From assembly GCA_000146465.1 (NCBI GenBank), contig CP001948.1: a stretch of DNA of 64,000 nt; one strand, given 5' to 3'. Positions 23,108-57,948 of this stretch are shown piece after piece. Position 1 is the first letter of the stretch, and every line of letters starts with the position of its first letter. The notes beneath the pieces were generated by a model. The model searched no databases. It was not told the origin of the DNA and worked only from the letters and a program-made list of their open reading frames with translations. Position numbers and translations under genes: made by a program.

Positions 23108-23151
23108 ATACATTGAATATGGATTCACCATTAAAGATTCGACAAGAAATC

Positions 23152-23695: not shown

Positions 23696-24084
23696 GATGA
23701 GGGCTTAAATCTTTCTTATGTTATAGGAAAATAAAAGCCGATAGGGCGACTGGACATATGTAAGGAACAAATGGATATGTCTGAGAAGGTTTTCCGATTG
23801 AAAGACATCTCCAAGGATGGTTCTTCTTCATCATAACGAAAAGTAGGTTTGAAGAGAGAAATGAGACTGAATGCAAATTAAAATTAAATTATTTAGCAAT
23901 ATGGACTTATTTATTAGGCCCCGATGAGCCGATTTAAATGATGGAATCTAAAATCTATTATCATGATAAACAAAATGATACCAAACGCCTAAATTGATTA
24001 ATATTAGCAATGAATAGATATATTGGCTGGAAACAAACGGGAATTACTATAAATGGACAAACATTAATTATCGGTCCCTTGTAA

Positions 24085-34586: not shown

Positions 34587-35522
<936 letters not shown>

Positions 35523-35631
35523 TTATTTTGGCCATCATCTCGAAAACTCTAGAAACCAACAGATTTTCCAGAAAGGAAAGGAGAAATTACTATGATACAA
35601 CCAGGACAGCTTAAGAATTTAATGTTTGGAG

Positions 35632-36675: not shown

Positions 36676-36702
36676 TCTGGGCCTGAGGCCGTATAGCTTT
36701 CT

Positions 36703-42309: not shown

Positions 42310-45252
42310 TCATCTCTCTACCCATTCACCTTTACCAGGTTTGTCCAATACGATAACATCACAAAAGTCTTCAAAGAGGTCCTCTACCCCCAGAGGAGTT
42401 ATCAGGATACCTTGGAACCCACTTTCTTGGAAAAAATCCAGAAGTAGTCTTATGGCTTGTTTTCTATTTAGATCATCCATGAACACATCGAACTCATCAA
42501 GGATCTTAATGGGACATGAAAGTGAAGGCCAAAGGGAGAGAAGCAACGAAACACATGCGAAAGATCTTTCTCCACCTGAAAGCATGCTTCTAGATCCTAC
42601 CGAGGTCTCTCCATCAACCTTCATCTTTACATCCAGTCTTTTCTTATCGTGATTAAATTCCAGAACTCCTTCATATCCCCTAGCTTTCGTTACCCTAGAA
42701 AACTCCTTGGCTGCATTATTGGCAATCTCTTTCCGCATAAAATCTCTTTTGGCTATTCTCGCTGTGATGTTTTCAAGAGTCTTTTCTATTTTTCCATTAT
42801 GTTCAGAAAGAAGGTCTTCTTTTCCCTTTTTGGCTTTCTTTAGATGAGCCACAGTAGCTAATGCCTTTTCTTCATCATCGATTCCTTTGCACATGTCGAT
42901 TTGTGCTTGGATCGAAACTATCTCTCTTCTGACTTCGTCTTCTGTCCTTGATTCTATTTCCTTCTTTCCACTCTTGAGGAGTATGCCTTTTTCTGCATTG
43001 TAAAGATCCACCTGCTTTAAATGTTCTTCTTTTAGCTTAACAACTTCCCCTCGTGACACTCCCATCTTTCTCTCAATGCTTGAGACTTCTGCGCTCTTCC
43101 TGTAAATCTCCTGTCTTAGCTTTTCTGTGTTTTCCACCTTATGCTCTTTGATCTCCTTGTACTCTTTTTCCAAAATTTCAATCTCCTTGTTAATTTCATA
43201 TTGCTTCTTTTCTAACAATGAGATTTGATTCTCAAGGCTTTTCGTTTCTTCATAAAGGTCATCGTTCTGTACAACTTCCATTTGTGCATTATATATCTGT
43301 TTTTCCTGGTTCATCTCAATCTCCAGAGTCTTGCAAGTCCTTTGAAGACCTTCTATCTTCTCTCGGACTTTCTCCATCTCATTGCTTATCTCCTCCAGCT
43401 TCTTCCCCCAGCTTTTCTCAATCCTCCCCTCCACTAGGTTCTTCATCTCTGCCCTACACCTTTCAAGCTTTTCACGTGTGTTCTCAAAATAAAACCTGTC
43501 TACTCCCCTTGTAACAAAATCAGACATACTTCCCCCAACTAGCCTAATCTTGTCTCCGTTCTTTGTATATGCACACTCTACAGATGCAGGTCTTGATCTT
43601 ATTATTTCATAAGCTTCCTTCCGATCCTCAACCAGAATCGTCTGCTCAATAGAGGCTGTTATTATCAGATAATTTATCACAAACGGGCTTCTTACCTCAA
43701 GGATATCAAGCACTGTCTTGTATTTCTCGTTTGCCCGGTATTTTATAACATTTGGTTCCTTGCTTGAGAGTGTCGAAATTGGAAAGTCTACTTTATGCTT
43801 CCTAAAGATTCGGAGCAAAATGTCTTTGTCTCTTTTATCCATTATAATAAAGGTTGACAAGAAGTTATTTAGTACAATGCTAACAGCCTTACTCCACTTC
43901 TGTTCCTTGAGTTTTACCTCAAATCCAATCGGACCGATAATCTTTCCATTGAACCTGGTTTTTGAGATCTCATCTATAACATTAGGGAAGTTGGGCCCAA
44001 AAAAACTATTCTTATCATTCTTGGAGTAAAATTCAATCTGCCTCCTAAGATGGAAAATACGGCCTTGCCTTTCGGAAATCATTTCCTCTTCCTCTCTCGC
44101 CTTCGCTCTGCATTCCTTAGCTCTTTCCTCAAGACTTTCCAGTATCCCATTCTGAGACTCAATTTCAGATGCCGCTTCCTTGTGCTTTTCCTCAAGTTGG
44201 GGAAGTAAGTTTTTCACCGTTCCGTCTTGTTTCTCAAAATCAGAAATAATTCTCTTCTTAAAGTCCCTTGCTTCTTTCAATTCCTCGCAGTCATTTCCTA
44301 TTTCTCTGTGCTTCATTCTTAGTTTACCAATCGTCTCATCAATCTCTTCCCTTCTTTTATCCTTGCTCTTTTTCTTTTCTCCTTCCGAGATTTCAATACT
44401 GACTAGTTTCTCCTGGGCATCCTTAACAACTCGAGTAAGCTCTTCCATTCTTTCACTATCTCTGTCCATCTCCTCTTGTTTGCTTTGGAACTTCTCAAAA
44501 CACTTCTCCATCTGTGCCTTTCTTTCATTTACCTTTGCCCACAATATTTCTTCCTCTAATTCAAGAATGGCTTTTTCCATGGCTTTAACACTCTTGATCC
44601 CCTCAAGCCTTCCTTCCTCATCCTTTATCTGTTTGTCGATGCCTTTCAGTTCCTCATCAACAAGGTTTATTCTTTTTCTCATCGCATCTACACTGCTCAT
44701 CGACTCATCATTCAGCTTGCATATCTCGGCAATCTCCGTCCCTTCCATAAACAGTTCATAAAGTGTCTCTGCGTTCGTCATATTCAAGAACTTCTTGGCT
44801 TGCTCTTGTGAAAGGAAGTTCAGAGGATTCTCAAATCTTAACGAAAAAAATTCCAGAACTAGCTCCAGATCCTCTTTTCTTGTCGACCAGACTTTTCTTT
44901 CCCCATTTACGATACTGCTAGTGGCCGACTTCAATCCAATTCTCTTCTCAATAATGATTGTTCCTCCAAAGAACTCCCTTTTGAATCCCCTATGATTCTC
45001 CAATACAACTCTTACAACAGCATTGGACTCCCCACTCTTGATCATATCTCTGAAACAACTTCCTCGTTCCAGATTGTATGCTCTCTGCCCAAGCACCAAT
45101 CCAATTGCAACCATTATTGCACTCTTTCCCGATCCGTTACATCCTGTCACTATCGTTAGAGGCTTTCTTAGATTAATGAGAAGATGGTCATGGCACATGA
45201 ATTTTATGAGTTCGATAGAGGCTATTGTTTTCTTAAACTTCTCGCAACTCAT
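42310..45252 (-). CDS. SMC6: structural maintenance of chromosomes protein SMC6
   Basis: N-terminal Walker A TIVTGCNGSGKSAIMVAIGLVLGQRAYNLERGSCFRDMIKSGE (SMC6: [22 protein letters not shown]...RGSSLKGFVKDG). Long coiled coils follow. The C-terminal signature LSGGERSFACVSLLLSLWPSLSCPIKILDEFDVFMD matches SMC6 LSGGERSFSTVCFILSLW...FRCLDEFDVYMD. Confidence 0.8.
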   Translation of the reverse strand: MSCEKFKKTIASIELIKFMCHDHLLINLRKPLTIVTGCNGSGKSAIMVAIGLVLGQRAYNLERGSCFRDMIKSGESNAVVRVVLENHRGFKREFFGGTIIIEKRIGLKSATSSIVNGERKVWSTRKEDLELVLEFFSLRFENPLNFLSQEQAKKFLNMTNAETLYELFMEGTEIAEICKLNDESMSSVDAMRKRINLVDEELKGIDKQIKDEEGRLEGIKSVKAMEKAILELEEEILWAKVNERKAQMEKCFEKFQSKQEEMDRDSERMEELTRVVKDAQEKLVSIEISEGEKKKSKDKRREEIDETIGKLRMKHREIGNDCEELKEARDFKKRIISDFEKQDGTVKNLLPQLEEKHKEAASEIESQNGILESLEERAKECRAKAREEEEMISERQGRIFHLRRQIEFYSKNDKNSFFGPNFPNVIDEISKTRFNGKIIGPIGFEVKLKEQKWSKAVSIVLNNFLSTFIIMDKRDKDILLRIFRKHKVDFPISTLSSKEPNVIKYRANEKYKTVLDILEVRSPFVINYLIITASIEQTILVEDRKEAYEIIRSRPASVECAYTKNGDKIRLVGGSMSDFVTRGVDRFYFENTREKLERCRAEMKNLVEGRIEKSWGKKLEEISNEMEKVREKIEGLQRTCKTLEIEMNQEKQIYNAQMEVVQNDDLYEETKSLENQISLLEKKQYEINKEIEILEKEYKEIKEHKVENTEKLRQEIYRKSAEVSSIERKMGVSRGEVVKLKEEHLKQVDLYNAEKGILLKSGKKEIESRTEDEVRREIVSIQAQIDMCKGIDDEEKALATVAHLKKAKKGKEDLLSEHNGKIEKTLENITARIAKRDFMRKEIANNAAKEFSRVTKARGYEGVLEFNHDKKRLDVKMKVDGETSVGSRSMLSGGERSFACVSLLLSLWPSLSCPIKILDEFDVFMDDLNRKQAIRLLLDFFQESGFQGILITPLGVEDLFEDFCDVIVLDKPGKGEWVER

Positions 45253-45403: not shown

Positions 45404-46045
45404 TTAAGCCAGGGACGAGTACTTTCCAAAAGATGGTCTCATGTAGGATCCCCCACTAGGGAAGAACCCAGCTTTCTCAGATGACTTGGATGCATTGTCT
45501 TTCTCCATTCCATTCTCTCCCTCAGCCTGTTCTTGGCCTCCTTCTAATCCAGAGTCTTCTCCTCCCTTGGCCTCTTCGCTTGCCTTTTCATCCTCAGGAG
45601 TGGTTGGCTTCTCCTTACCCTTTGCGCCCTCTTTGCTTTCAGGTGTCTTAGCATTAGCATTACCTGCTTTCTTTGTCATATTATTGTATCCCTCCATGTA
45701 GGAGAAGTCGGGCTTTGGAATGAATTTGTTGGAAGCCCCAAACCTTTCCGATGCAAATGCCACCCTATCAAGGCTCTCAAGGACTGGCCCTGGGACAAAC
45801 TTGACCTCATAGGGGTTGACATAGGTTGTTGTTTCACGTACAATGGCCAAACCGTTCTCAAGTACCATCTTTCTAGTCATCTCTGGAGTAAAAGTATCTT
45901 TCATGGTCGTCCTGGTAACTAGATATTCATTCTGATAGTTACTGTCACTATCCCCAGCGAACTCTTCCTTTCCAGAAGTGGTCTTTTCCGAGGCAGCAAC
46001 CTTGTACAGGTAACAGGCGGCCAGCTTGAATGTGGTAAACTTCAT
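45404..46045 (-). CDS. hypothetical secreted protein: N-terminal signal peptide, C-terminal K/E/G-rich low-complexity tail
   Basis: From the internal Met, MKFTTFKLAACYLYKVAASEK is a typical cleavable signal peptide. The tail is ...KAGNANAKTPESKEGAKGKEKPTTPEDEKASEEAKGGEDSGLEGGQEQAEGENG. I recognise no family. The ORF extends to 46114. Confidence 0.4.
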   Translation of the reverse strand: MKFTTFKLAACYLYKVAASEKTTSGKEEFAGDSDSNYQNEYLVTRTTMKDTFTPEMTRKMVLENGLAIVRETTTYVNPYEVKFVPGPVLESLDRVAFASERFGASNKFIPKPDFSYMEGYNNMTKKAGNANAKTPESKEGAKGKEKPTTPEDEKASEEAKGGEDSGLEGGQEQAEGENGMEKDNASKSSEKAGFFPSGGSYMRPSFGKYSSLA

Positions 46046-46290
46046 AGTCTTGAGATTATGAAAATCGTGGTTTAAATAGTTTTTCTTGCTCTTACAATGT
46101 TTTGGATCTACCAATAGTCCACGGGCCTATGCCTGAAACACTTCTCAGATTGATCCACCTATTCTTCTTGCAGTGTCTGTTATGGAGTCTTAATGGATAC
46201 AGATCACATAGACCAAGCTTTTCTTCTGGCCCTGTTAAGCAGACCGGGCTTATATCATGGATTTTATACTTGGAAATTAAGGCCCTTGAA

Positions 46291-47178
46291 ATGGTAGTAC
46301 AGGAGAGGAAAGACAACCTTCCTCCAAAGGGACTAAGAAATAGAGGGAACACTTGTTTCTTCAACTCGGCAATGCAATGCATTCTATCGATCGGCGAGCT
46401 CAACACCTTCTACAAGAACACGGATTTCCCAAAAGAAAAAGTAATATCTAATGCATTTAAACAATTCATATCGGAGTATGAAAGTCGGGGACACAACGAC
46501 CCAAAGAGTCTTATCGATAAGCTTAGTACAAAGATAAAGCTGTTCAACGGGATGCAGCAGGATTCCCATGAGTTTCTTATTCAATTCATTGATCTGTTGT
46601 ATACGGAATCGGATAGAAACAAAGGTAGATTTGAATCAAGAGAAGAGTTTGAGGAGGTTCGGAAACACAATCTGATTGCAAAGACTTTGTTTTCGATGGA
46701 TAGACAGGTATTAACATGCGAAGCATGCAGTTATTCCTCTGTGACACTTGCTATAAACAGCACGATTCTTGTAGAGCCCCGTGAGACTATCCAACTAGGA
46801 ATAGACCAGTGTTACGAAGAGGTGAAGCTTGAGGGAAAGGATGCCTGGAAATGCGACAAGTGTGGAAAAAAGAAGAGCTCTAAAAAGAAGATAGAGATTC
46901 TTGTTCATCCCGAAGTTCTAATAATTCATATCTCAAGATTCCATCCACAAGGGTGGAAGAATACAGCAAGTGTCAATATTGATGACACATTGTTTTTCAA
47001 CAATAGAAAATACAGTCTTTTTGGGGTTGTTTGCCAGAATGGAACTCTGAGCGGAGGACATTATTTTGCAGAGGCCAAAAGATCTGGTACATGGAATGTG
47101 TACAATGACGAGCAGGTGACAAAAGGCTCCAAGACCTACAGTGGAGCACATCCTTACATAGTTTTCTATGCTCTTTAA
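46291..47178 (+). CDS. ubiquitin carboxyl-terminal hydrolase (USP/UBP, peptidase C19), catalytic core only
   Basis: Cys box is GLRNRGNTCFFNSAMQCI. His box is GGHYFAEAKRSGTWNVYNDEQV. A zinc-ribbon-like CEAC...CDKC lies between them. The ORF extends upstream to 46102, and the start is set at Met 46291. Confidence 0.75.
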   Translation: MVVQERKDNLPPKGLRNRGNTCFFNSAMQCILSIGELNTFYKNTDFPKEKVISNAFKQFISEYESRGHNDPKSLIDKLSTKIKLFNGMQQDSHEFLIQFIDLLYTESDRNKGRFESREEFEEVRKHNLIAKTLFSMDRQVLTCEACSYSSVTLAINSTILVEPRETIQLGIDQCYEEVKLEGKDAWKCDKCGKKKSSKKKIEILVHPEVLIIHISRFHPQGWKNTASVNIDDTLFFNNRKYSLFGVVCQNGTLSGGHYFAEAKRSGTWNVYNDEQVTKGSKTYSGAHPYIVFYAL

Positions 47179-47335: not shown

Positions 47336-48142
47336 ATGGTATTTTGTATGGAAAACTTCTGGAGCATAGTTCCATGCAGGAGTAAAAGAGAGGAGAAGGT
47401 TATTAAAAGTACCTATCTAAAGAGCTATGAGGCAACTCAAAGTGAATGTGAATCGGATTTTTTTTCCGATAGCGGTGGACTTGACGAAGCACGTGGGAAG
47501 GACAACTCCCGACGGATGAAAAGAAATGAAAGAAATATTTCTAAAAAAATCCGGAAAACAAGTTCTAGCATGGTTTCAGAGCCAAGAATCGATGAAAAGA
47601 AGAAACAAAAGCCAAGGACCAATAGTACTGTGAGTAGCGAGGAACTTTGGAGTGGTGAGGATGAAGAAATAGTTGATCAAACAGAGTCTTTCAGCGGATT
47701 CAAAGAAAGGAAAAGAGATAGGAATAGAAGAGGGAAGTCGGAAGGTAATAGAGAAGTCTCTTCAGAGGATTCACACTTTGAAGACATCCAGGGCCCGAGG
47801 AGATCTTCTAGGACAATAGATGCATCTGCCAAGAAGACCGAGATACTTGAGAAGTATAGAAGTAGGATATATCGTGACAACAAAAAATCCCGCGATCCCG
47901 AGGATATTTCAAGGGAATCTGGAATCGAATCAAACGATTATGGAAAAGAGGAAAGGTTTTCTAAGTCGCAAGGGCTTAATAGATTTGGAGACTCCAAAGT
48001 AAATGAAAGAGATGCCCGCAACTTTGATGATAGCGAAAGCGAAATCAACTTTATAATGGACGTATACGACAAATCATCACTGAATAATAGCTTGAGAGAA
48101 AAGATGTTTGAATACCTTAACCAAATAGGGAGGAAAGGATAA
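47336..48142 (+). CDS. hypothetical highly charged (K/R/E/S-rich) low-complexity protein
   Basis: ORF only. Its composition resembles nucleolar or chromatin-associated disordered proteins. Confidence 0.3.
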   Translation: MVFCMENFWSIVPCRSKREEKVIKSTYLKSYEATQSECESDFFSDSGGLDEARGKDNSRRMKRNERNISKKIRKTSSSMVSEPRIDEKKKQKPRTNSTVSSEELWSGEDEEIVDQTESFSGFKERKRDRNRRGKSEGNREVSSEDSHFEDIQGPRRSSRTIDASAKKTEILEKYRSRIYRDNKKSRDPEDISRESGIESNDYGKEERFSKSQGLNRFGDSKVNERDARNFDDSESEINFIMDVYDKSSLNNSLREKMFEYLNQIGRKG

Positions 48143-48186: not shown

Positions 48187-49152
48187 TTAATTCTGTTCCA
48201 TCTGAACAGGATGGACAAGCCTTTCCTGATTTCCAACAAATATATTTCTTATTTTATCGCTCTGCTTCTCGCCTAAAGGTCTGGAATTCTTTCCATCGGA
48301 GTCCCAGACTTTAAATTCCTTTAGCAATCCGCTGTTGTCCCCTTTAAGAAATGAATGGAGATTACTAATGCTTTGGAAGTGAAGAGATAGGCTACGGGCT
48401 GCATTTATTCCTATTCCCGGAATGTTCTGTAAAACATTTTGGAGATGCTCAATCTTTTGATTTGAAGAAAATGTCTTTGTTTTTGGTACGTGGACGCTCT
48501 CTGAATACAGATGCCTTACTATGGCTTTCAGTTCTCGAGGAAGATCCTCAGGATCATCGATAAAGACAAAGTTTCTACCGTTCTTGATTTGTGTGAGATA
48601 GATTTCCTCCATCTTTTTTTCATATTCATTTTTCTTCCTGACGTATTTTTTTCCTTCTTCCAATGCTTTTCTATATTCCTTGTCTTCTCTCGCTTTTACA
48701 GAACTCCGATATTTGTTTCTGTTCACTACAAAAGAGATGTTGCGGCCACAAGCCTCAATTCCATCCTTTTCCAAATCGATAACTCCTAGAGAATATACTG
48801 TCTTATGGTTATTACATTCAACTATCTCTAAGGACTGGTCCGCGGAAAACTTGTAAACAAATTTCCGGTCCTTTATCTTGTTTACAAACCTCTCTAAGGT
48901 TTGAGGAAAGACAAAGTAATGGTTTGCAAAGGCCGAGTCAAGATTCTTCGGAAATGAATTCTGCTGTGTTTCTGAGGATGCCTTTAGCTGAGGAGCATTA
49001 GATATGGAGAGTGGAATGTCGAGAATGGTAATCGAACTGTCGGTATCGGGGACGTTTCCTGAAGATCTTTCATTCCCTACACTGCTCCTTTCCAAATATT
49101 CCATGAGATTTACATGCTGGCTGTTCATCAAAAGCCCCCAAAAACTTCTCAA
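48187..49152 (-). CDS. HhH2-containing protein, candidate Eme1/Mms4-like partner of a structure-specific endonuclease
   Basis: C-terminal LQNVLQNIPGIGINAARSLSLHFQSISNLHSFLKGDNSGLLKEFKVWDSDGKNSRPLGEKQSDKIRNIF resembles the EME1 tandem helix-hairpin-helix tail (L..IPGVSEEIAQAI...YPTMRSL...LLAELKVRRGEG...RRIGPELSRRIY). Confidence 0.4.
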   Translation of the reverse strand: MRSFWGLLMNSQHVNLMEYLERSSVGNERSSGNVPDTDSSITILDIPLSISNAPQLKASSETQQNSFPKNLDSAFANHYFVFPQTLERFVNKIKDRKFVYKFSADQSLEIVECNNHKTVYSLGVIDLEKDGIEACGRNISFVVNRNKYRSSVKAREDKEYRKALEEGKKYVRKKNEYEKKMEEIYLTQIKNGRNFVFIDDPEDLPRELKAIVRHLYSESVHVPKTKTFSSNQKIEHLQNVLQNIPGIGINAARSLSLHFQSISNLHSFLKGDNSGLLKEFKVWDSDGKNSRPLGEKQSDKIRNIFVGNQERLVHPVQMEQN

Positions 49153-49159
49153 TTTATCT

Positions 49160-50701
49160 CTACCCTCTCTTTGGATTCTCAGGAAGAAGCTTAATATACC
49201 CTCTTCTATTAGTATTAAGGTGAAGCTCCTTGGATCTCGAAGGATTTAGATAAAACATCCGAATGGCCTGTCCAACTTTGATGTCTGGGGAAGGATTCCA
49301 CCATGTCACTGTGCATTCTCCGCTACTATCTCTGACCAGTAGCTTGGTATACATAGTGATCCTTACATCATGCGACGAAAAGACTCTTTCTGCTTTCCTT
49401 GCGAGATCTTCTATTCTATCCAGTTCGGGTTCGAGATCATCAGTTGTATTGCTATAATTCTCCACTTTTACAAAATACTTTGTTTCGATGATCTTTATAA
49501 CAACCCCTTCAATGCAGCAGACAGGGCCTCCATTGCTAAGGATTTCCGATATCTTAAGTCTGAACCCTATTCTTTTTCTATATCCAAGTCTTCTCTTGGA
49601 ATGGACTACTCGGACTCCATTGTAATGCAGCTTAAGACGGACATTCTCACAATCAAAAATGGATATTGGCGTGCTTCCCTCAAGATCTGCCCCAAAGACC
49701 TTAAGTCTAAATCCAACTCGGATCTCCTTCTTTTCTATCTTTTTTTGGAGAGCCTCGTCATATGATGCATAGAGACTGTGATATCCATCAAATACCTCAA
49801 TCTTTTCTCCATCTATTCCAACAACCAAGAGGATCATATATCTCCAAGGGACATCGTCCCCCTCCAGAATTCTCCGAAGTACAGAATACTCATTCTCTAG
49901 TCTTATCCTAACCTGCTCTTCTATTCTATCTACAAAATCATTAAACTCCAGCCGTCTCCTCCCAAGGAAAAAATAAATCCACGCCCATGTAAACTGAGCA
50001 AAAACTCGGTTCGTATCTTCTGCAGGAAACCTCTTTTTCATCTCCCTATAAACCCTCTCAGGATCTATTTCTACTTCTTCCCTCTCCACTCTTCGAGATA
50101 AATTGTCCTGCGCTTCTCCATTTGTATCTACTTTTTCCATTCCATCTTCGAATATTTTATATGCTGAGCGAATACTCTCCCTTCGCACCTGGATCTTCTT
50201 TTTAGATCCTGTTGTAAACCCTGAAAACATCATATCTTCATTGGTGTTCCCTCCTTCGCCAAGATCTATATCCAAGATATGATCAGAATCCAAAGATAAG
50301 CGCTTTTGAGGAAAAGTATTGGGATTGTTTTCATCAGTGCTTGTTACACCGATGCTGTTTGTAGAATTAGCATTCATGGCTTTGCATCCATCTTCAGGAC
50401 TCTCAGGAATCCGAGATGAGTCCGAGTTGAAGTCGTAGAATGTTTGATTTTCCTGTTCTAAGGACTCGGATACATCGGGTTCCTCCCCTGCAGTGTTATC
50501 TTTACGGCAAGCATTGTCTGAGCTAAAAAAAATCATATCATCACAACTTACTTGGATTGAATCAAGGACGCTGAAAGAGTCTTCTGTCTCTTCTTCGCTG
50601 TTGCTACTGCTTTGGAAGAAACTTTCAAATTCAACCTCCGAGCCTGCATCCATGGGCAGAATGCAGGAGGGATGCTGTCGGAATAAAATACAAAATAACA
50701 A
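49160..50701 (-). CDS. BRCA2 homologue (minimal: one BRC repeat + helical domain + OB1)
   Basis: BRC repeat [28 protein letters not shown] matches BRC4 [26 protein letters not shown]. The DNA-binding domain blocks align in order with human BRCA2 helical domain and OB1: [30 protein letters not shown] matches [79 protein letters not shown] matches [64 protein letters not shown] matches [21 protein letters not shown]; and [16 protein letters not shown] matches SDGGNVGCVDVIIQR. Confidence 0.8.
   Translation of the reverse strand: [513 protein letters not shown]
50144..50230 (-). other. BRC repeat (RAD51-binding motif) within the BRCA2-like CDS
   Basis: [28 protein letters not shown] follows the FxTASGK...ESL...LF consensus. 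Confidence 0.7.
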
Positions 50702-50702
50702 T

Positions 50703-53393
50703 TTATTCTGTTCTCAATCCGAACAGATTGTTTCTATCGTTGTTCACTAGAAACCAAACAGTTTTGAAGAAGTGTTCGGGAAGGATGAGGGATGAGTTTG
50801 ACTTGGCTGTGTTTGGGTCGTTGTAGTATGATTCCTTCTCAATCTCCTTGGTATCCTTGATTCCTAGCTCAGACAGCGGAAGAATATCGACATCTGGCCC
50901 TCCTCCCATTTCAGACCAGCTTTCTAGAAGATTGACTCTTTCCACAAGAACCCTCTCTGTAAAGGTGTCCAAATACTCCTCTTCCTTGATGTTTAGAGGA
51001 TAGAAGTGGCAGGACTTGTAGAACATCTTCTTAAGGCTACTGCGGAATATAAATGTGATCAGAATAATGGGAAGAAGAAACATCGAGAGGTAAAATCTCT
51101 TGTCCGAAGACATCTTTGCAAAGGTTGCCACCTGGAAAAATATAAGCGAAAACATTATGTTCTGGCATGCAGAGTCCCAATATCCCCCTCCGGACTCATA
51201 CTGGTTTCTAGAAGCATACAAAAACTCCGACTTAAACGTTAAGTAGTTGCATAAGTAGAAAAACGCTCCGAGTAGAAGGATTGGCGGGCATATGACTGCG
51301 TAGACAATAGACATCGAAAATACAGTCAGACACGACGGGAATATGGTCCCGAAGTCAAATGGAGGAGAGAACTCGGCATCGAATCTTTCCCTCCTTGTCT
51401 TTCTCCCCGTAAATGGAAAGATAATGTAATTTATCAGCAACGGAGCAGGCTTCAGCAGTGTTAATGCAGTTCCCACTAAGGTCCTTTGGATAATTGTATT
51501 TGCGAAAAATACAGACGATTCTAGGGACTCATTACTGAACGCCTTGATGACATTGTATATTCTTTCATTTCGGAACAGAACATCTGCAAAGAGCCTATAG
51601 AAGCTTGATGCAAAGAACACCGAGACAAACCCGTTGAAGAACAGGAAGTTGGAGAGTTTGTCCATCAGCTTCTGTTGGAAAGTTGAGTATGAGTAGATTC
51701 CTTCCATGTTCACAAGTGCGGTTATGATCGTAGGGACAAACACCATCATGGAGTTGTAAATAAGTGGGAATAAGATTCCTCGCAAGGAGTCGGTGATAGT
51801 CTCATGCTTGTCCAGAAACGAGGATATAAGCTTGTTTTCTCTAAACATCTCGGTGCTTACTAGCAAAGTAACAATGTTGGCAACTATCGACGAGAATAGG
51901 ATGATAAAAAGAATGAAAAACACCGCCCCAAAGACACTGTACATGTAGTTTTCGACCTCGCTGTTTGTTATGTTCTCCCAGATGACGTCGTTCGGTGCCG
52001 GGGCATCTTCCGATGCGACCGAAAATATTCTTGATCCTATTTGTGACTGCTTCACTATATTTGCACTTCTCTGGTCCTTGAACGTAACAAATCCTCTTTT
52101 GGTTTTTGAGGGGAGGTCTAGAGTAAAGTACATCTTGTAGTTGCTGTAATTGAGTATGTGATGAAACGAAAAGAAGCTTGCATCCTGCGATATGTCACCT
52201 TGCAGGAAAAGAGTGTTATTGTGTGAAACTAGCTCGACAATCCTAACGTCCTTATTCCTTGCTTCCTCATTTTTTATGATCTCCTTTTCCTTGCTAATTC
52301 TGCCATTCACGTTATTCAGTTTTTCCAAATAGAAGTTTACCTTTGGGATATCTTCCTTGAGTGTGTTTTCGAACTGCTTGGCTCCGTCCAAAAATAGAAC
52401 AATAAGTTGTCTCTTCTGTGAAGAATCAAAAACACCCTCTATGTTGGCCTCCTCAACAGTTTTGAGGATGCTCTCTTTAAATCCAGATATACTTTCTGCA
52501 CATGCTTCCTGATTCTTTTCCGACCAGTCTTGCATCTTTGCAAACTTTTCATTGATTTCTTTCTCGATGTTATAGATGTAGCTGTCCTTCTCACTATAAA
52601 GACTCTGCAAAGTATTGGTATCATATACGAGTACACAGTCATCAATCTCTCCAACTCCGAGGGAATCAATAAACTCAAAGAGATCTATATCGTTATTCAC
52701 ATAGCTTGGTAGTCTCGAGAGAATTAGCGTTCTGTTTGGAAGGTTGACATACTCTGTAGACTTCTCGGCACTTCCAAGGTTGTTTGAGAGTCTCTTCAGT
52801 GTTATTATGGACGTCATTATTGCTGGGTTGCGTAGATATGCTTGCCTTAGAACGATATATCTTTTGTAGTATATAAAGATAGAGTACATTATAAAGGCAG
52901 ATATAAGGTACACAACAGGTATTATGAATCCATAACTTTCGGACTTTGGGTCCAAGCTTCCTAGAGAAAGTCTAACAAGCCATTGATCAGAATTCTCGAC
53001 GTTCTCCCGCTGGTTTGTCCAGAACAAATATCCCAGAGATGGGATAACAAAGAAAGATAGGACAAAGAGAATTCTGTACAGCATCTTCAATGTCTGCAGC
53101 ATCATAAATGCATCTAATCCTATGATTGATAAGAGTATTGTGTCGCTTACCGTCACAACAGGAATGATCCAGCTAAGAAACCCGGTGTAGTTATAGCACG
53201 GATGGCAAGGTCTGTCTTTGACGTTGGGTGAATAAAGCCATCTTGCCCTCTTTCTGAAGATGATGTACACTATTAGGATACAGACTGTGATAAATCCCTG
53301 GGACACTATGTTTGTCAACACAGCATTGTCAGCCCCCTTCAGAGGAGGCTTTTCTACTGCCTTCCCCATGTTTTCCTTGTCAGCATCGGCCAT
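50703..53393 (-). CDS. CSC1/OSCA/TMEM63-family calcium-permeable stress-gated cation channel (DUF221 / RSN1_7TM)
   Basis: N-terminal TM FITVCILIVYIIFRKRARWLYSPN, then FLSWIIPVVTVSDTILLSIIGLDAFMMLQTLKM (the family's conserved f.sWi...d.e.l...GlDa..fLrfl block). A cytosolic middle domain follows. The C-terminal multi-pass region contains many aromatic or Gly TM helices. Confidence 0.7.
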   Translation of the reverse strand: MADADKENMGKAVEKPPLKGADNAVLTNIVSQGFITVCILIVYIIFRKRARWLYSPNVKDRPCHPCYNYTGFLSWIIPVVTVSDTILLSIIGLDAFMMLQTLKMLYRILFVLSFFVIPSLGYLFWTNQRENVENSDQWLVRLSLGSLDPKSESYGFIIPVVYLISAFIMYSIFIYYKRYIVLRQAYLRNPAIMTSIITLKRLSNNLGSAEKSTEYVNLPNRTLILSRLPSYVNNDIDLFEFIDSLGVGEIDDCVLVYDTNTLQSLYSEKDSYIYNIEKEINEKFAKMQDWSEKNQEACAESISGFKESILKTVEEANIEGVFDSSQKRQLIVLFLDGAKQFENTLKEDIPKVNFYLEKLNNVNGRISKEKEIIKNEEARNKDVRIVELVSHNNTLFLQGDISQDASFFSFHHILNYSNYKMYFTLDLPSKTKRGFVTFKDQRSANIVKQSQIGSRIFSVASEDAPAPNDVIWENITNSEVENYMYSVFGAVFFILFIILFSSIVANIVTLLVSTEMFRENKLISSFLDKHETITDSLRGILFPLIYNSMMVFVPTIITALVNMEGIYSYSTFQQKLMDKLSNFLFFNGFVSVFFASSFYRLFADVLFRNERIYNVIKAFSNESLESSVFFANTIIQRTLVGTALTLLKPAPLLINYIIFPFTGRKTRRERFDAEFSPPFDFGTIFPSCLTVFSMSIVYAVICPPILLLGAFFYLCNYLTFKSEFLYASRNQYESGGGYWDSACQNIMFSLIFFQVATFAKMSSDKRFYLSMFLLPIILITFIFRSSLKKMFYKSCHFYPLNIKEEEYLDTFTERVLVERVNLLESWSEMGGGPDVDILPLSELGIKDTKEIEKESYYNDPNTAKSNSSLILPEHFFKTVWFLVNNDRNNLFGLRTE

Positions 53394-53578
53394 CCTTGCT
53401 TAGGGACTAAAAATTTTATCTTTGTAGCAACCAATAAAAATATACACACATCCGTTTGCCAGTGAAAGTCTTCTCTTAAGGAGAACCTTCCCATCCATTT
53501 GGATGCACTGTTTTTATGATACAAAATAAAGATGGGTGTTGGGGTCGTTTTAATCCGAAGGGCCTGTGAGGGTAAATA

Positions 53579-53872
53579 ATGCGGATGAAATTTGTGGCAG
53601 AGAAGTCAACGAGTCTTCAAGATGTCGAAGACGAGAAGCAAGCTAATGTTGCCACTTTAAGAGAGAACGAGAAGATCTTGATTCTGTCCGTTGAAGAGGA
53701 GATTGCTCTGAACAAACAAAATATTGGAAACGATGTATATTATGGTGCGAAAAGGGCGTTTTTGTCGGGGGGAAAGAAAAAGCTGGATGAGAAACTTGTA
53801 TCCCTTGGCCTGGACGATGAACAACAACTAATAGTGTCTAACTTGATAATGAGTAAAGAAATAAAAAGATGA
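53579..53872 (+). CDS. hypothetical small protein (97 aa)
   Basis: ORF in an otherwise empty 500-bp interval. I recognise no family. Confidence 0.25.
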   Translation: MRMKFVAEKSTSLQDVEDEKQANVATLRENEKILILSVEEEIALNKQNIGNDVYYGAKRAFLSGGKKKLDEKLVSLGLDDEQQLIVSNLIMSKEIKR

Positions 53873-53924
53873 GCTTTGGTTTTTTAATCACAGGCAATGG
53901 TGAAAACACACCCCTATCTATAAT

Positions 53925-54287
53925 CTACTGGAGAGCCTCTTTAATTTTCTCCTCTAGACGCAAGGACTCGGATCCCTTTGGCAAGTAAATGGTGCATGCA
54001 GCAATTGGCCTATGGATTCCGCATGCTACACCCAGGGCACTCTTGGAAGGAATGTGAACAAAGGGAACACCCTTATCTTCACATATTATGGGCAGAAAGG
54101 CCGTTATTTCCTGCGGCTCTGCATCACATGCTATGACAACAAGGAGGGCGGTCCCCTTATTAAGACACTTTGTCGACTCATTTATGCCTTTTCTAACGTT
54201 CTTTGATCTTGTGGCTCCTTGGATTAGCTTCAGTATGTTCTGTACTTTTGAGTCGGAGACCGGAGAGTATGTCTGGGTCATTGTCAT
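53925..54287 (-). CDS. SNU13: L7Ae-family RNA-binding protein Snu13 (15.5K; U4 snRNP and box C/D snoRNP component)
   Basis: Colinear with SNU13/NHP2L1 over the full length: KNVRKGINESTKCLNKGTALLVVIACDAEPQEITAFLPIICEDKGVPFVHIPSKSALGVACGIHRPIAAC aligns with [70 protein letters not shown]. Confidence 0.8.
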   Translation of the reverse strand: MTMTQTYSPVSDSKVQNILKLIQGATRSKNVRKGINESTKCLNKGTALLVVIACDAEPQEITAFLPIICEDKGVPFVHIPSKSALGVACGIHRPIAACTIYLPKGSESLRLEEKIKEALQ

Positions 54288-54323
54288 TGAAGGGGCAAAA
54301 ATTTTGGTGTTTAGAGCCCTTGG

Positions 54324-54710
54324 ATGAATATCAAGTCTAAGTATGACAAGGTGGTGAAAGCTCTATCTATCCGCCAGGTAGATCTATGGGCTGTGCCGAA
54401 GCTGATGACTCCTCTTGAAAACAGCTTTCAGACCGAAGCCATTGGAGACGAAGAGATCTGTATTGTACCCAAGGAAGCCAATTTCCAGCTCCCTAATATC
54501 TTCCTGAGGACCAGGCTGAATCCCGAATGCCAGAAGCTGATCGACAGTAGCAAGAGTAGTGAAAACTGGAACGACATTATCGAAGGGGTGATAGAAATGC
54601 TTGAGGAGGCCGACCTAACTACGGGTGAACACAGCCCTACAACTAGAAAATGCCCTGTGGATCAGGACACCCTGAACAAACTGGTATTTGAGAGATATGG
54701 GCACATCTGA
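54324..54710 (+). CDS. hypothetical protein (128 aa)
   Basis: ORF only. Confidence 0.25.
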   Translation: MNIKSKYDKVVKALSIRQVDLWAVPKLMTPLENSFQTEAIGDEEICIVPKEANFQLPNIFLRTRLNPECQKLIDSSKSSENWNDIIEGVIEMLEEADLTTGEHSPTTRKCPVDQDTLNKLVFERYGHI

Positions 54711-54899
54711 TTGGAAGAGATGATAGACATACTATTTATATATGTTTGGACTCCATTGGATGAATTAGGGATATCAGCTTAAACCTATTGGTGGGAAGCA
54801 ATACTTCATTTGTCCTTATGATTAGATTGCTTGGTCGAGCAATCACTTTCGATGATGGATACATTTTAAAGATATAAAGACAAACAGTCCATCGTCTAC

Positions 54900-56246
54900 A
54901 TGAACCTTACAGTAGAGGAACCTTCGAAGGTAATAAAAATGAGGGTGAATGGAGGTAAACACCATAAGGAGCCGAGATACAAAAAAACGGTTTCTGGGGA
55001 AGAAGGGGAACTTTATCCGTCTATCTATGGCCAGAAATCCGAGGAAAAAAGGGTTCTTCAGAAAAGGGCTCTTTTTGAGTTGTATGATGATGAGAATTGT
55101 CCAGATGGAGCGATGTTCAATACAAAGGAGGTTTCTATTGATTTCTTTGATTTGAATCCGATGAAAAGGAAACAGCAAAAAGAAGGAAATCCCAAGAGTG
55201 GCGGAGTTAGAGAAGTGGAAAACCCATGGGGTGGGAAGGACAAGGGTATGATACTGGAAAGGAGCTTTATAGAGAGTATGCTAGAAAACGACATCCGGGT
55301 CAAAGATATAAAGTATGGAGAGGACCTTGTATTTATATATTTTTTCACAGTGGAAGATTCTATATCGTTTTACAAGCAGTTCTTACCATATGCAGAAGTA
55401 CACTTCTCCGAAGCATATGACTTTGAGCAAGCTTTATCTCTTTCTTCAGAGGAATGGGCCAGTATTGCACTACTGAACATGTGTTGCGATTCTTCAAAGA
55501 TCAAGGAAAACTCTGTTCAGCCTCCAGATGAAAAAATACATTTGGAAACAAGCAATGCATTAGAAAATGGATTCCAAGCAGATGAACGGAGTGAAAGCAT
55601 AAAAGATGAGGAGACATCCTTATTTAGATGCACGGGATTTGGTAGTAGCGGATGGGACTGTGAGTTGTCCCAAGAAGAAATCTTCACAAGAAAAATTGAG
55701 CACTTCACACATCTCAGGAATTTCTTCTCGAAGAGCGAGGTAAAAGCCATGTCCCAGAGCTTGGAGATGGGAAATGTTGATTTTGTGTTTAAAAACACCA
55801 AAGAACTGGCCGTTGGAAACCAGTCAAACAAGGTGATGCAGGAGGCAATAGGCCTTCTCCCCGAGACTGGAATTGCTCGAATTATTCAGAATCTTGGACA
55901 TGACATTGCTCCTATAGCAGCAAACAAGCATGGAGCATATACTATCCAGATGCTGATTTCGATGTCAAAGACATCGCTAACCCAGAATCTACTATCGAAA
56001 TACTTTAGGAGGTTTGGAGAGTTCTTAATAACCCATGAGATCGGGAACTATACTATCCAGAAGATACTTAGGTTTGATGCGAATCTTGTATTTGAGCTTT
56101 TTATCTCAAGAATCGGAGATGTCGTAAAAAACGAGCTTGGTATAAAGGTTTTGAAGAGATGTATAGAGTTCTTTCCCGATAAAAAAGGCTTCTTGGCCCA
56201 AAAGGCTAAAGAGCATGGAAAGAACTTGACCACTCTGCTATTTTAG
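54900..56246 (+). CDS. Pumilio-family (PUF repeat) RNA-binding protein
   Basis: The C-terminal half carries repeated PUF-like units KHGAYTIQMLI, HEIGNYTIQKIL and NELGIKVLKRCIE, which match the ...G..VIQ.../...GNYVIQ... repeat signature. The N-terminal part is acidic. Confidence 0.5.
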   Translation: MNLTVEEPSKVIKMRVNGGKHHKEPRYKKTVSGEEGELYPSIYGQKSEEKRVLQKRALFELYDDENCPDGAMFNTKEVSIDFFDLNPMKRKQQKEGNPKSGGVREVENPWGGKDKGMILERSFIESMLENDIRVKDIKYGEDLVFIYFFTVEDSISFYKQFLPYAEVHFSEAYDFEQALSLSSEEWASIALLNMCCDSSKIKENSVQPPDEKIHLETSNALENGFQADERSESIKDEETSLFRCTGFGSSGWDCELSQEEIFTRKIEHFTHLRNFFSKSEVKAMSQSLEMGNVDFVFKNTKELAVGNQSNKVMQEAIGLLPETGIARIIQNLGHDIAPIAANKHGAYTIQMLISMSKTSLTQNLLSKYFRRFGEFLITHEIGNYTIQKILRFDANLVFELFISRIGDVVKNELGIKVLKRCIEFFPDKKGFLAQKAKEHGKNLTTLLF

Positions 56247-56259
56247 GATTGTATTAAAT

Positions 56260-57948
56260 TTATTTTTCATATTCAACCAGTCCAACCTTTGCCTTCAAAT
56301 CGGAAATCACTTTGTTATGGTAGGCTTCGTCAACAAATACTCTACAGGGATCAAATTCCACAAGGGGTTTTGTGCCTAGTGTTGTTTCTAGAAGTAGGAT
56401 TGCCCCATACACATCATTTTCCGATGGTTTTCCGGAATTCAGCAGCTTGGAATGTGCTTCTGTAAGCCTTGCAAGGCTCTCTAGCATTCTAACGGTGTTG
56501 AATTCATTAGCTCCCTCGGCTTTTCTTTTATAGTGGTAGTAGCTCATCAGAACAGAGTTAAGGCTGTCGGGAATGACTGTACTTTTTTTTCTTACAGTTC
56601 CTATGTAGCTCTTTAAAATCCCACTGCCCCAGTACTTTGTTTCTTGTTTCTTCTCGGAAAGTCTCTTCTCAGGATTTCTACCAAGGATCTTATCTACAAT
56701 CATCAAGTCATTACTGTGGCTATTCCCATCAAATAATCCAAAAATAAGATCAAACCTGCTGGCTAAGGGGGTTGCAATCATGGTGTTTTCCGAGACACTT
56801 TTGTCAAAGTTGTATTTATGTCTCGTGTTCACCACTGCAATGACAGAACATCTGGTATTCAATGAAGAAACAATCCCTGCCTTTGCTATGCTGAGTGTTT
56901 GCTGCTCCATTGCTTCCAGAAGTCCGTTTTTTTCATTAACCTTAAGTTTGTTAAACTCATCTATACAGCAAATCCCTGTATCTGCAAGTACTAGAGCCCC
57001 TGCTTCCAGAACCCACTCTTTTCCTTGCCTCACTGCACATGCCGTGAGCCCAGCTTGCGAGGTTCCTACTCCATTGGTCAGAACTGCTGGGGACAGAAGC
57101 TTAGTGCATGTCTTGAGGAGATGGGATTTTCCCGTCCCAGAATCTCCAACCAAGAGTACATGGGAATTTGACCTTGTACATCCCTTTTGCTCTTCATGGA
57201 ATCCGCTTACAAGAGCCAGCAGAAGTCCAAGCTTGACATTCTCGAGTCCTTGTATCTCCTCTCCAAATGAATTAATAAGAAACAGTCTTCTTTGGAAGCA
57301 TTCAAGCCCATCCAATCTGCTTATAAATGCTCTTCCAAGTGGGTCTCCCATAGATTCATCGTCTTGCTTATGAACTGCAAGTGCATGCATGTATATGGAG
57401 CTTGCCATTGGTTCCCCTATCTTGAATGGCTTCCATCTCACAAGAATTACTCCTGTTACAAGTATCTTATCTCCGGGAAAAAACTTTCCTGCAAGATCCT
57501 CCTCGAGAACAACTTCTAGCGTCTCCGACATTGAGTTGGGATTTCCTATGTCCTGGATCCTTATCTTTTGACTCGGAATGGCCTCCCCAAAGCACCTTCG
57601 ATCCTTCAGAAGAGACGATCCACAGGATTCACACAGCATTTTACCCTTTCTTTTTCCCGAAGAGCATTGGTATGCCTTAGAATTGCACTTCAGACACACC
57701 AACTCACTCGTGACATTTCTTATCAAAGTTTCATAGGCTCGGATAAGTGTTCCACTCACAGTGATGATCCGATTGATGTTCTTGCTGTAGCATGCTTTAT
57801 CTGTGAACAATGCATATGGAATCCCTTTAAGAGTCCTCTTGTATATGTAGTGATGGGCAGAAACCTCCAGTGCAATACTATTTGCCAATTCTGGATTCTT
57901 CGAGCAAAGTTCAATTAAGTCGAGTTCCTTTTCCTCTTCCAAAACCAT
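56260..57948 (-). CDS. MCM9: MCM9-like DNA helicase (MCM-family AAA+ ATPase with N-terminal zinc finger; short, 562 aa)
   Basis: N-terminus ITVSGTLIRAYETLIRN...CLKCNSKAY...SQKIRIQDIGNPNSMSETLEVVLEEDLAGKFFPGDKILVTGVILVRWKPF aligns with MCM9 LSVTGTVIRTSLVKVLE...CNKCKHVF...[53 protein letters not shown]. Walker A LLVGDSGTGKSHLLK (G rather than A, as in MCM8/9). TNGVGTSQAGLT matches TTGIGSTSAGLT. EAGALVLADTGICCIDEFNKLK...LEAMEQQTLSIAKAGIV and arginine finger SRFDLIF are present. Confidence 0.8.
   Translation of the reverse strand: MVLEEEKELDLIELCSKNPELANSIALEVSAHHYIYKRTLKGIPYALFTDKACYSKNINRIITVSGTLIRAYETLIRNVTSELVCLKCNSKAYQCSSGKRKGKMLCESCGSSLLKDRRCFGEAIPSQKIRIQDIGNPNSMSETLEVVLEEDLAGKFFPGDKILVTGVILVRWKPFKIGEPMASSIYMHALAVHKQDDESMGDPLGRAFISRLDGLECFQRRLFLINSFGEEIQGLENVKLGLLLALVSGFHEEQKGCTRSNSHVLLVGDSGTGKSHLLKTCTKLLSPAVLTNGVGTSQAGLTACAVRQGKEWVLEAGALVLADTGICCIDEFNKLKVNEKNGLLEAMEQQTLSIAKAGIVSSLNTRCSVIAVVNTRHKYNFDKSVSENTMIATPLASRFDLIFGLFDGNSHSNDLMIVDKILGRNPEKRLSEKKQETKYWGSGILKSYIGTVRKKSTVIPDSLNSVLMSYYHYKRKAEGANEFNTVRMLESLARLTEAHSKLLNSGKPSENDVYGAILLLETTLGTKPLVEFDPCRVFVDEAYHNKVISDLKAKVGLVEYEK

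What the first reader, a model, noticed from the sequence alone, without database searches (positions are those of the whole stretch)
48187..57948. Tight physical clustering of homologous-recombination and replication-stress genes (Eme1-like, BRCA2, MCM9; SMC6 nearby)
An HhH2 protein resembling Eme1/Mms4 (48187..49152) ends 8 bp from the start region of a BRCA2 homologue (49160..50701). Both are on the minus strand. An MCM9-like helicase lies about 5.5 kb further on (56260..57948). SMC6 lies about 3 kb to the other side (42310..45252). MCM8/9, BRCA2, Mus81-Eme1 and SMC5/6 all act in homologous recombination or replication-fork repair. Eukaryotes rarely cluster functionally related genes, so four HR factors inside 16 kb is unusual. 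This is especially so in a reduced genome that has discarded many pathways. It could be chance, conserved synteny, or co-regulation through shared short promoters.
Basis: partly seen in the sequence, partly recalled or inferred. Interest (0 to 1): 0.55.

Follow-up and report, generated by a model that had tools for sequence, protein, structure and literature searches.

The report
Four repair genes on one syntenic block
Four real DNA-repair genes (SMC6, an Eme1-like protein, BRCA2 and MCM9) do lie within 16 kb of this tiny parasite chromosome, but they look like neighbours by inherited gene order rather than a functional cluster; the most useful result is that the "Eme1-like" gene is probably the Mus81 partner once reported as missing from these parasites.

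Summary
The window is Encephalitozoon intestinalis chromosome VII. All four gene identities hold. 42310-45252(-) is SMC6. 49160-50653(-) is BRCA2, with one BRC repeat and OB1. 56260-57948(-) is MCM9. 48187-49104/49128(-) is publicly named "vesicular transport protein", but it folds as a non-catalytic ERCC4-like domain plus (HhH)2, and its closest solved structures are EME1 and EME2. The four genes are 4 of 12 in 15.6 kb.

The clustering reading is not supported:
- The BRCA2-to-X gap is 31-55 bp, not 8, once ATG starts are used. The window median is 63.5 bp.
- The whole 18-gene stretch, unrelated genes included, is collinear in E. cuniculi and Ordospora.
- In eight more distant microsporidian loci, repair neighbours are kept no more often than unrelated ones (5/24 against 15/64).
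- No shared MCB-like or E2F-like upstream motif was found.
- A placement simulation gives a genome-wide chance of 0.7-11% for a set of 25-50 such genes, before allowing for post hoc choice of category.

Best reading: inherited collinearity in a slowly rearranging compact genome. The by-product is a candidate for the Mms4/Eme1 subunit that a 2007 survey reported absent from E. cuniculi.

The parts
42310..45252 (-). SMC6 (980 aa), with Walker A GCNGSGKS, signature LSGGERS and Walker B ILDEFDVF
   Evidence: Pfam AAA_23, SMC_hinge, SMC_N. PDB best hits are yeast and human SMC6 at 196-210 bits over residues 12-957; other SMC families score below 50 bits.
48187..49128 (-). X: Eme1/Mms4-like non-catalytic XPF/MUS81-family subunit. 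313 aa from the ATG at 49128; the public model Eint_070370 starts at 49104 and is 305 aa, named 'putative vesicular transport protein'.
48505..48939 (-). X: ERCC4-like (nuclease-like, degenerate) domain, aa ~56-200 in 305-aa numbering
   Evidence: Beta/alpha core in the model. 5 of 50 family members give weak Pfam ERCC4 hits. The position of the ERK motif reads N-R-N here, and only the R/K is conserved across the family.
48229..48465 (-). X: C-terminal (HhH)2 domain, aa ~214-292, including the IPGIG hairpin
   Evidence: The family profile hits the HhH regions of UvrC, archaeal XPF, Mus81 and FAAP24. G230 is invariant and I228/P229 are highly conserved. Weak single-sequence UvrC hit.
49160..50653 (-). 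BRCA2 orthologue (497 aa, Eint_070380)
   Evidence: Pfam BRCA-2_OB1 8.6e-18 and BRCA2 repeat 7.5e-7. 100% identical to Eint_070380.
50144..50227 (-). Single BRC repeat (FSGFTTGSKKKI...), the expected RAD51-binding element
   Evidence: Pfam PF00634 at residues 159-186 of the 513-aa ORF. G145, F146, T148 and G149 are invariant in 10 orthologues.
49577..49885 (-). BRCA2 OB1 fold
   Evidence: Pfam PF09103 at residues 273-375 of the 513-aa ORF.
56260..57948 (-). MCM9 (562 aa) with zinc finger, Walker A GDSGTGKS, Walker B CIDEFNK and arginine finger SRFDL; no long C-terminal extension
   Evidence: Pfam MCM, MCM_OB, MCM_lid. PDB best hit is human MCM9 at 256 bits, against MCM7 at 196 and MCM8 at 146. 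E. cuniculi MCM8 and MCM9 are already in the literature (PMC1231718, PMC2667178).
45404..48142 (.). Interleaved unrelated genes: g213 45404-46045(-), UCH ubiquitin hydrolase 46129-47178(+), g268 47336-48142(+)
   Evidence: Pfam UCH 2.3e-36; no hits for the other two. They are collinear with the repair genes in relatives.
50703..56246 (.). Interleaved unrelated genes: RSN1/OSCA-type membrane channel 50703-53393(-), g97 53579-53872(+), L7Ae 53925-54287(-), DUF5100 54324-54710(+), PUF RNA-binding protein 54900-56246(+)
   Evidence: Pfam RSN1_7TM 6e-53. L7Ae and DUF5100 come from precomputed Pfam on the orthologues. PUF comes from PDB hits PUF3 and Pumilio, 3e-6.

Best explanation
A 15.6-kb, 12-gene stretch of Encephalitozoon intestinalis chromosome VII carries four genuine genome-maintenance genes: SMC6, an Eme1/Mms4-like subunit (X), BRCA2 and MCM9. 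They are independent genes. Each has its own very short upstream region, and eight unrelated genes lie among them.

Their proximity is best explained as inherited collinearity. They belong to an old microsporidian syntenic block that has simply not been broken up in the Encephalitozoon/Ordospora lineage. It is not a selected functional cluster or a co-regulated unit.

Expected function, inferred from the families:
- BRCA2 loads RAD51 through its single BRC repeat and OB fold.
- MCM9 acts with MCM8 as a repair helicase.
- SMC6 acts with SMC5.
- X is the non-catalytic partner that dimerises with Mus81 through its nuclease-like and (HhH)2 domains, forming the structure-specific endonuclease.

Shown here: gene identities, the fold of X, loss of the catalytic motif, and the synteny pattern. 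Inferred only: the X-Mus81 pairing, and the absence of co-regulation, because no expression data were available.
For: Identities.

X:
- Confident model.
- The family is microsporidia-wide, and UniRef names some members 'ERCC4 domain-containing'.
- The ERK motif is not conserved.
- Gill & Fast 2007 list Mus81, Rad1 and Rad10 as present in E. cuniculi but Mms4 as absent (PMC1851970). That leaves Mus81 without a partner, and Rad10/ERCC1 is already accounted for.

Synteny:
- All 18 genes from separase to Sel1 are collinear in E. cuniculi and an unnamed relative, and 17 of them, from Kin1 to Kin2, in O. colligata; g213 fell below threshold there. This matches the genome-wide synteny reported for these genera (PMC4313915).
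- In eight more distant loci, other repair genes of the set are retained in 5 of 24 possible cases and in-cluster unrelated genes in 15 of 64, that is 21% against 23%.

Spacing is ordinary. No MCB-like or E2F-like motif lies upstream. The chance simulation gives 0.7-11% for plausible set sizes, for a single category chosen beforehand.
Against: - For a narrow definition of the set (25-35 genes) the genome-wide chance is only about 1-2%.
- Two distant lineages still keep three of the four within about 16 kb: L003 has MCM9, BRCA2 and SMC6; L014 has X, BRCA2 and MCM9.
- In L003 and L006 a different recombination gene, a HEI10/CCNB1IP1 orthologue, sits directly beside BRCA2. Recombination genes therefore recur around BRCA2 with different partners.
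- No expression data were examined, so co-regulation is not excluded.
- The rest of the E. intestinalis genome could not be scanned, so the true size and distribution of the repair-gene set are assumed, not measured.
Confidence: 0.72

Rival explanations
1. The proximity is maintained by selection. The repair and recombination genes form a loose co-regulated neighbourhood, for example induced together at a meiosis-like or sporogonial stage. Regulation would work through shared chromatin context or the overlapping, read-through transcription typical of compact microsporidian genomes.
For: Four of 12 genes belong to one pathway family, and nominal chance is 0.7-2.4% if the set has 25-35 genes. 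X, BRCA2 and RSN1 are tandem on one strand with 31-55 and 49 bp gaps, so read-through transcripts are plausible. L003 and L014 keep three of the four linked. A HEI10 orthologue neighbours BRCA2 in L003 and L006. A published survey claims non-random co-location of Fanconi-pathway genes in fungi, at the much coarser scale of 250 kb (PMC11061109).
Against: Unrelated genes are interleaved and are conserved in position just as well (21% against 23% retention). X leaves BRCA2 in every lineage outside Encephalitozoon/Ordospora except L014, where a gene intervenes and the orientation is convergent. Vavraia, Hamiltosporidium, Spraguea, L008 and L006 show no cluster. No MCB-like or E2F-like upstream motif. 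The category was chosen post hoc. SMC6 and MCM9 have separate, differently oriented neighbours.
Confidence: 0.12
2. X is not the Mus81 partner. It would be another non-catalytic XPF-family protein, for example a Zip2/Spo16-type meiotic XPF-ERCC1-like subunit, a FAAP24-like partner of a FANCM/Mph1 helicase, or a lineage-specific DNA-binding protein. The 'cluster' would then hold only three classical HR factors.
Against: EME1 and EME2 are first in both structure searches, with full-length alignments of about 280 columns. E. cuniculi has Mus81 with no recognised partner, while Rad10/ERCC1 is separately present (PMC1851970). From general knowledge, FAAP24 is not known outside animals and fungal FANCM orthologues lack the ERCC4-like tail. 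Zip2/Spo16 chains are not among the top 50 Foldseek hits.
Confidence: 0.15

Closest known systems
Eme1/Mms4 (and vertebrate EME2), the non-catalytic subunit of the Mus81 structure-specific endonuclease
   Same: Two-domain build: a degenerate ERCC4 nuclease-like domain followed by a C-terminal (HhH)2. The ERK catalytic motif is lost. They are the best structural matches. X would fill the vacant partner slot for the Mus81 already reported in E. cuniculi.
   Different: X is much shorter: about 305 aa, against about 570-690 aa for human, fission-yeast and budding-yeast proteins (general knowledge). The N-terminal region is only about 55 aa. Sequence similarity is below Pfam detection. The interaction with Mus81 is untested.
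Conserved collinear blocks of microsporidian genomes (Encephalitozoon-Ordospora synteny)
   Same: The whole 18-gene neighbourhood, repair genes and unrelated genes alike, keeps the same order and orientation in E. cuniculi and O. colligata. This matches the genome-wide pattern described in PMC4313915.
   Different: Nothing specific. This block merely happens to contain four repair genes.
Functional gene clusters of fungi (metabolic clusters; the reported co-location of Fanconi-pathway genes, PMC11061109)
   Same: Several genes of one broad pathway lie close together on a chromosome.
   Different: The genes are not contiguous: eight unrelated genes are interleaved. There is no shared regulator or motif, and repair genes are not preferentially kept together in evolution. 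The published claim concerns 250-kb distances, not a 16-kb cluster.
Small fungal BRCA2 orthologues such as Ustilago Brh2 (comparison from general knowledge)
   Same: A short protein with a single BRC repeat and an OB-fold DNA-binding region.
   Different: Only OB1 is detected. No helical domain, tower, OB2 or OB3 is detected by Pfam, and a Dss1 partner was not examined.

Membership tests
Eme1/Mms4 (Mus81 partner) | ERCC4-like domain followed by a C-terminal (HhH)2 domain | tested here: met
   The model at pLDDT 85.7 shows a beta/alpha core (aa 62-200) plus a five-helix HhH2 (aa 214-292). All significant Foldseek hits are XPF/MUS81-family two-domain chains.
Eme1/Mms4 (Mus81 partner) | Catalytic GDXnERKX3D motif degenerate (non-catalytic subunit) | tested here: met
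   In 50 family members the ERK-equivalent position keeps only R/K (31 R, 17 K). No conserved acidic residue precedes it, and E. intestinalis reads N-R-N. The register of the motif was judged from the alignment and model, not from a structure superposition.
Eme1/Mms4 (Mus81 partner) | Closer to Eme1/EME2 than to the other XPF-family members (Mus81, XPF, ERCC1, FANCM, FAAP24, Zip2/Spo16) | tested here: inconclusive
Eme1/Mms4 (Mus81 partner) | Forms a heterodimer with Mus81 and supports flap or junction cleavage | not testable with these tools
   No multimer prediction is available and no Mus81 sequence of this species was in hand. The only support is the literature report that Mus81 is present and Mms4 is 'absent' in E. 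cuniculi (PMC1851970).
BRCA2 | At least one BRC repeat (RAD51-binding FxTASGK-type motif) | tested here: met
   Pfam PF00634, 28.9 bits against a cut-off of 20.3. The sequence FSGFTTGSKKK is invariant at G, F, T and G in 10 orthologues.
BRCA2 | BRCA2-type OB fold DNA-binding domain | tested here: met
   Pfam PF09103 OB1, 64.8 bits against a cut-off of 25.6.
MCM9 | MCM OB, AAA+ and lid domains with Walker A, Walker B and arginine finger | tested here: met
   Pfam MCM 230 bits, plus MCM_OB and MCM_lid. The motifs GDSGTGKS, CIDEFNK and SRFDL can be read in the translation.
MCM9 | Orthology to MCM9 rather than MCM2-8 | tested here: met
   Human MCM9 scores 256 bits, against MCM7 196, MCM4 186 and MCM8 146. 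Published trees place an E. cuniculi protein in MCM9 (PMC1231718, PMC2667178).
MCM9 | MCM8 partner present in the genome | not tested
The literature reports MCM8 in E. cuniculi.
SMC6 | SMC head, coiled-coil and hinge architecture, with SMC6-specific similarity | tested here: met
   Pfam AAA_23, SMC_hinge, SMC_N. End-to-end match to yeast and human SMC6 (210 and 196 bits), while SMC5 scores 21 bits and SMC1-4 score 30 bits or less.
Functional (co-regulated or selected) gene cluster | Members contiguous or sharing regulatory elements | tested here: not met
   Eight unrelated genes are interleaved. No MCB-like or E2F-like motif lies upstream; only generic AAATTT/GGG-type start-proximal signals are seen.
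Functional (co-regulated or selected) gene cluster | Linkage of members preserved preferentially over neighbours during evolution | tested here: not met
   Retention in eight distant loci is 5/24 for repair genes against 15/64 for unrelated in-cluster genes.
Functional (co-regulated or selected) gene cluster | Co-expression of members | not testable with these tools
   No expression data were available. No paper in the library mentions these locus tags.

The most novel reading that the evidence does not exclude
Recombination genes are non-randomly gathered around BRCA2 in microsporidia. The neighbours are an Eme1-like subunit in Encephalitozoon/Ordospora and a HEI10 crossover ligase in other lineages, with MCM9 and SMC6 within a few kb in several. 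This would mark a co-expressed module for a cryptic meiotic or recombination stage, in organisms whose sexual cycle is still unresolved.
Probability: 0.1. Interest if true: 0.6.

Novelty: new member of a known kind. Interest (0 to 1): 0.27.

Why it matters
The cluster itself does not change anything: it is ordinary conserved gene order in a compact genome.

Two smaller points are useful.
1. A gene publicly labelled "vesicular transport protein" is very probably the Eme1/Mms4 partner of Mus81. A much-cited inventory of E. cuniculi repair genes scored that subunit as lost. If confirmed, the Mus81 nuclease of these minimal eukaryotes is complete, and the picture of "stripped-down" recombination repair needs a correction. 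BRCA2, MCM8/9 and SMC5/6 were not in that yeast-based inventory either.
2. At about 300 aa, the microsporidian protein would be a near-minimal Eme1, useful for defining what the subunit actually needs.

Tried and rejected
- A scan of bacterial and archaeal genome contigs for BRCA2 relatives found nothing, as expected for a eukaryotic gene. It was a wasted call.
- A metagenome scan with a BRCA2 alignment also found nothing.
- The afdb50 fold library was unavailable.
- The profile-against-PDB sequence search reached only the HhH region (UvrC, XPF, Mus81, FAAP24) at E>=5e-4, so it could not assign a subfamily.
- The word-indexed search with the 50-sequence profile added no named relatives.
- The 341-aa gene next to BRCA2 in L003 was tested as a possible diverged X and rejected (hhalign probability 0.1%).
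- The MCM gene near X in Vavraia was tested as a possible MCM9 and is MCM5.
- g448, beside MCM9, was checked as a possible hidden repair factor and is a PUF RNA-binding protein.
- MCB (ACGCGT) and E2F-like motifs were sought upstream of the four genes. None are there, and the window holds only two ACGCG and one match to each E2F-like pattern.
- Locus tags were searched in the literature with no hits.
- The reading 'vesicular transport protein' for X has no support in any search.
Full report
**Source and layout.** The window is Encephalitozoon intestinalis ATCC 50506, chromosome VII. The two central ORFs are 100% identical to the public protein Eint_070380 and to its neighbour, which is named 'putative vesicular transport protein'. 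The sequence is about 40% G+C and 92% coding by ATG-started ORFs. The median intergenic gap is 63.5 bp.

**Check of the observation.** All four named genes are real and lie at the stated places on the minus strand.
- 42310-45252 is SMC6. It has Pfam AAA_23, SMC_hinge and SMC_N. It matches yeast and human SMC6 structures end to end at 196-210 bits, while every other SMC scores below 50 bits.
- 49160-50653 is BRCA2. It has one BRC repeat (28.9 bits) and the OB1 fold (64.8 bits).
- 56260-57948 is MCM9. It has the MCM OB, AAA+ and lid domains. Human MCM9 is the best hit at 256 bits, against 196 for MCM7 and 146 for MCM8. E. cuniculi MCM8 and MCM9 were already described (PMC1231718, PMC2667178).
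- The fourth gene, X (48187-49104 or 49128), has no Pfam hit and only a faint UvrC helix-hairpin-helix match.

With ATG starts, BRCA2 is 497 aa and X is 305 or 313 aa. The gap between the BRCA2 stop and the X start is then 55 or 31 bp, not 8. Seventeen of the 44 gaps in the window are 55 bp or shorter, and the unrelated RSN1 gene sits 49 bp upstream of BRCA2 on the same strand.

**What X is.**
- A profile search of 1.8 billion representative proteins found 60 relatives, mostly 250-350 aa. The named ones come from Ordospora, Hamiltosporidium, Vavraia, Spraguea and Conglomerata, so the family is spread across microsporidia. UniRef calls a few of them 'ERCC4 domain-containing protein'.
- Five of 50 members give weak Pfam ERCC4 hits, and several give HhH hits.
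- A first model from six orthologues was poor. A model from the 50-sequence alignment reached pLDDT 85.7. It shows a beta/alpha core followed by a helical (HhH)2 domain.
- The first five Foldseek hits are all EME2/EME1 chains (E 3.8e-8 to 4.7e-6, about 280 aligned columns). All 19 hits with E<=1e-3 belong to the XPF/MUS81 family.
- Across the family, the position of the ERK catalytic motif keeps only the basic residue (N-R-N in E. intestinalis), and no conserved acidic residues stand where a metal site would be.

So X is a non-catalytic XPF-family subunit closest to Eme1. Gill & Fast (2007) found Mus81, Rad1 and Rad10 in E. cuniculi but scored Mms4 as absent (PMC1851970). An orphan Mus81, together with ERCC1 already being accounted for, makes X the obvious candidate partner. 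I put this at about 0.75-0.8. The pairing itself is inferred, not shown.

**Is the proximity meaningful?**

*Composition.* The 15.6-kb interval holds 12 genes. The other eight are a UCH ubiquitin hydrolase, an RSN1/OSCA-type channel, an L7Ae protein, DUF5100, a PUF RNA-binding protein and three small unknowns.

*Chance.* I simulated an assumed 1,850-gene genome. The probability that some 12-gene run contains four members of one pre-named set is 0.7% for a set of 25, 2.4% for 35, 11% for 50 and 34% for 70. The category was defined after the fact. I could not count the true set in this genome.

*Synteny in close relatives.* In E. cuniculi and an unnamed close relative, all 18 genes from separase to the Sel1-repeat gene have the same order and orientation. 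Ordospora colligata keeps the same order over the 17 genes its locus covers, from Kin1 to Kin2. This matches the genome-wide synteny reported for these genera (PMC4313915).

*Synteny further out.*
- L003-5 (25% G+C) keeps MCM9, PUF, DUF5100, L7Ae and RSN1, then an inserted gene, BRCA2, an unknown gene, an inverted SMC6, and UCH. It has no X.
- L014 keeps UCH, two unknown genes, X, one gene, BRCA2, RSN1, L7Ae, DUF5100, PUF and MCM9.
- L013 keeps GPP34, REX, SMC6, g213, UCH, g268, one gene and X, with no BRCA2 next to X.
- L006 has BRCA2 with none of the others.
- L008 and Spraguea keep only UCH near X. Vavraia and Hamiltosporidium keep nothing.

Counting over these eight loci, other repair genes of the set are retained in 5 of 24 possible cases. 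In-cluster unrelated genes are retained in 15 of 64. The repair genes are therefore not held together preferentially.

*Regulatory signals.* No MCB or E2F-like motif occurs upstream of the four genes. The upstream stretches show only the generic AAATTT-like and GGG-like start-proximal signals also seen before RSN1 and L7Ae.

**Conclusion.** The best reading is inherited collinearity in a slowly rearranging compact genome (confidence about 0.7).

The rival, a selection-maintained and co-expressed recombination neighbourhood, is not excluded, because I had no expression data. One side observation gives it some life. In L003-5 and L006 the gene directly beside BRCA2 is an orthologue of the meiotic crossover ligase HEI10/CCNB1IP1 (PDB 9ges_A, E 9.8e-15). 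The two copies are 49% identical, and the gene is absent from the Encephalitozoon/Ordospora block. I give that rival about 0.1.

**Novelty and value.** The cluster is ordinary. MCM9 was already in the literature; BRCA2 and SMC6 are recognisable from their domains, and UniRef already names the BRCA2 orthologues by their OB1 domain. The part not found in the annotation or in the papers searched is the assignment of Eint_070370/ECU07_0380 to the Eme1/Mms4 family. That makes it a new member of a known kind and a small correction to the published repair-gene inventory of these parasites.

Noticed in passing
L003 9321-9893(+) (also in L004 and L005); L006 9060-9629(-): A 190-aa RING plus coiled-coil gene directly beside BRCA2 in two non-Encephalitozoon microsporidian contigs is an orthologue of the meiotic crossover E3 ligase HEI10/CCNB1IP1 (PDB 9ges_A, E 9.8e-15). 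It is absent from the window and from the Encephalitozoon/Ordospora block. HEI10 in microsporidia bears on whether they have meiosis.
   Followed up: partly
L008 3619-4617 and 13762-14617; L011 10001-11143 and 14372-16291: In two distant microsporidia (an unnamed contig and Vavraia culicis), the X (Eme1-like) gene lies 3-9 kb from MCM5. The Vavraia gene was confirmed as MCM5 by PDB search; the L008 gene rests on precomputed Pfam MCM5_C. This may be a trace of a different ancestral neighbourhood, or chance.
   Followed up: partly
window 48187-49104; P0004, P0010, P0013: Public names look wrong. X is 'putative vesicular transport protein' in E. intestinalis and E. romaleae. The BRCA2 orthologue is 'putative integral membrane protein' in E. 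romaleae. A 51%-identical BRCA2 is filed under the snail Biomphalaria pfeifferi, probably from a microsporidian contig in that assembly.
   Followed up: no
window 7211-8143(-), 13134-14129(+), 36703-39066(+), 41183-42295(+): Other chromosome-biology genes lie in the same window outside the finding: the ASF1 histone chaperone, polynucleotide kinase 3'-phosphatase (PNKP), separase, and a REX/RNase T-type exonuclease immediately beside SMC6.
   Followed up: no
window about 49009-49044 (X residues 21-32 of the 305-aa protein): The N-terminus of X is disordered in the model but carries a near-invariant DTDSS(I/V)(T/S)(I/L)L(D/E)(I/L)P motif across Encephalitozoon-type orthologues. It looks like a SUMO-interacting or partner-docking motif. 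Not tested.
   Followed up: no
window 23108-24084, 35496-36702, 20309-20358: Two unusually long stretches, about 1 kb and 1.2 kb, contain at most short ORFs (101-124 aa and 96-105 aa) in an otherwise 92%-coding window. Two plus-strand ORFs also overlap by 50 bp. These could be small genes, RNA genes or a frameshift. Not examined.
   Followed up: no
L006 10001-13494: In this contig (53% G+C) BRCA2 is followed on the same strand by the RFC1 clamp-loader large subunit, so a different DNA-metabolism neighbour appears in another lineage.
   Followed up: no
P0029 (Conglomerata obtusa KAM0687033.1): The X domain occupies residues 625-895 of an 895-aa predicted protein. The N-terminal 620 residues have no Pfam hit. 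This is either a long N-terminal extension, as in canonical Eme1/Mms4, or a gene-model fusion.
   Followed up: partly
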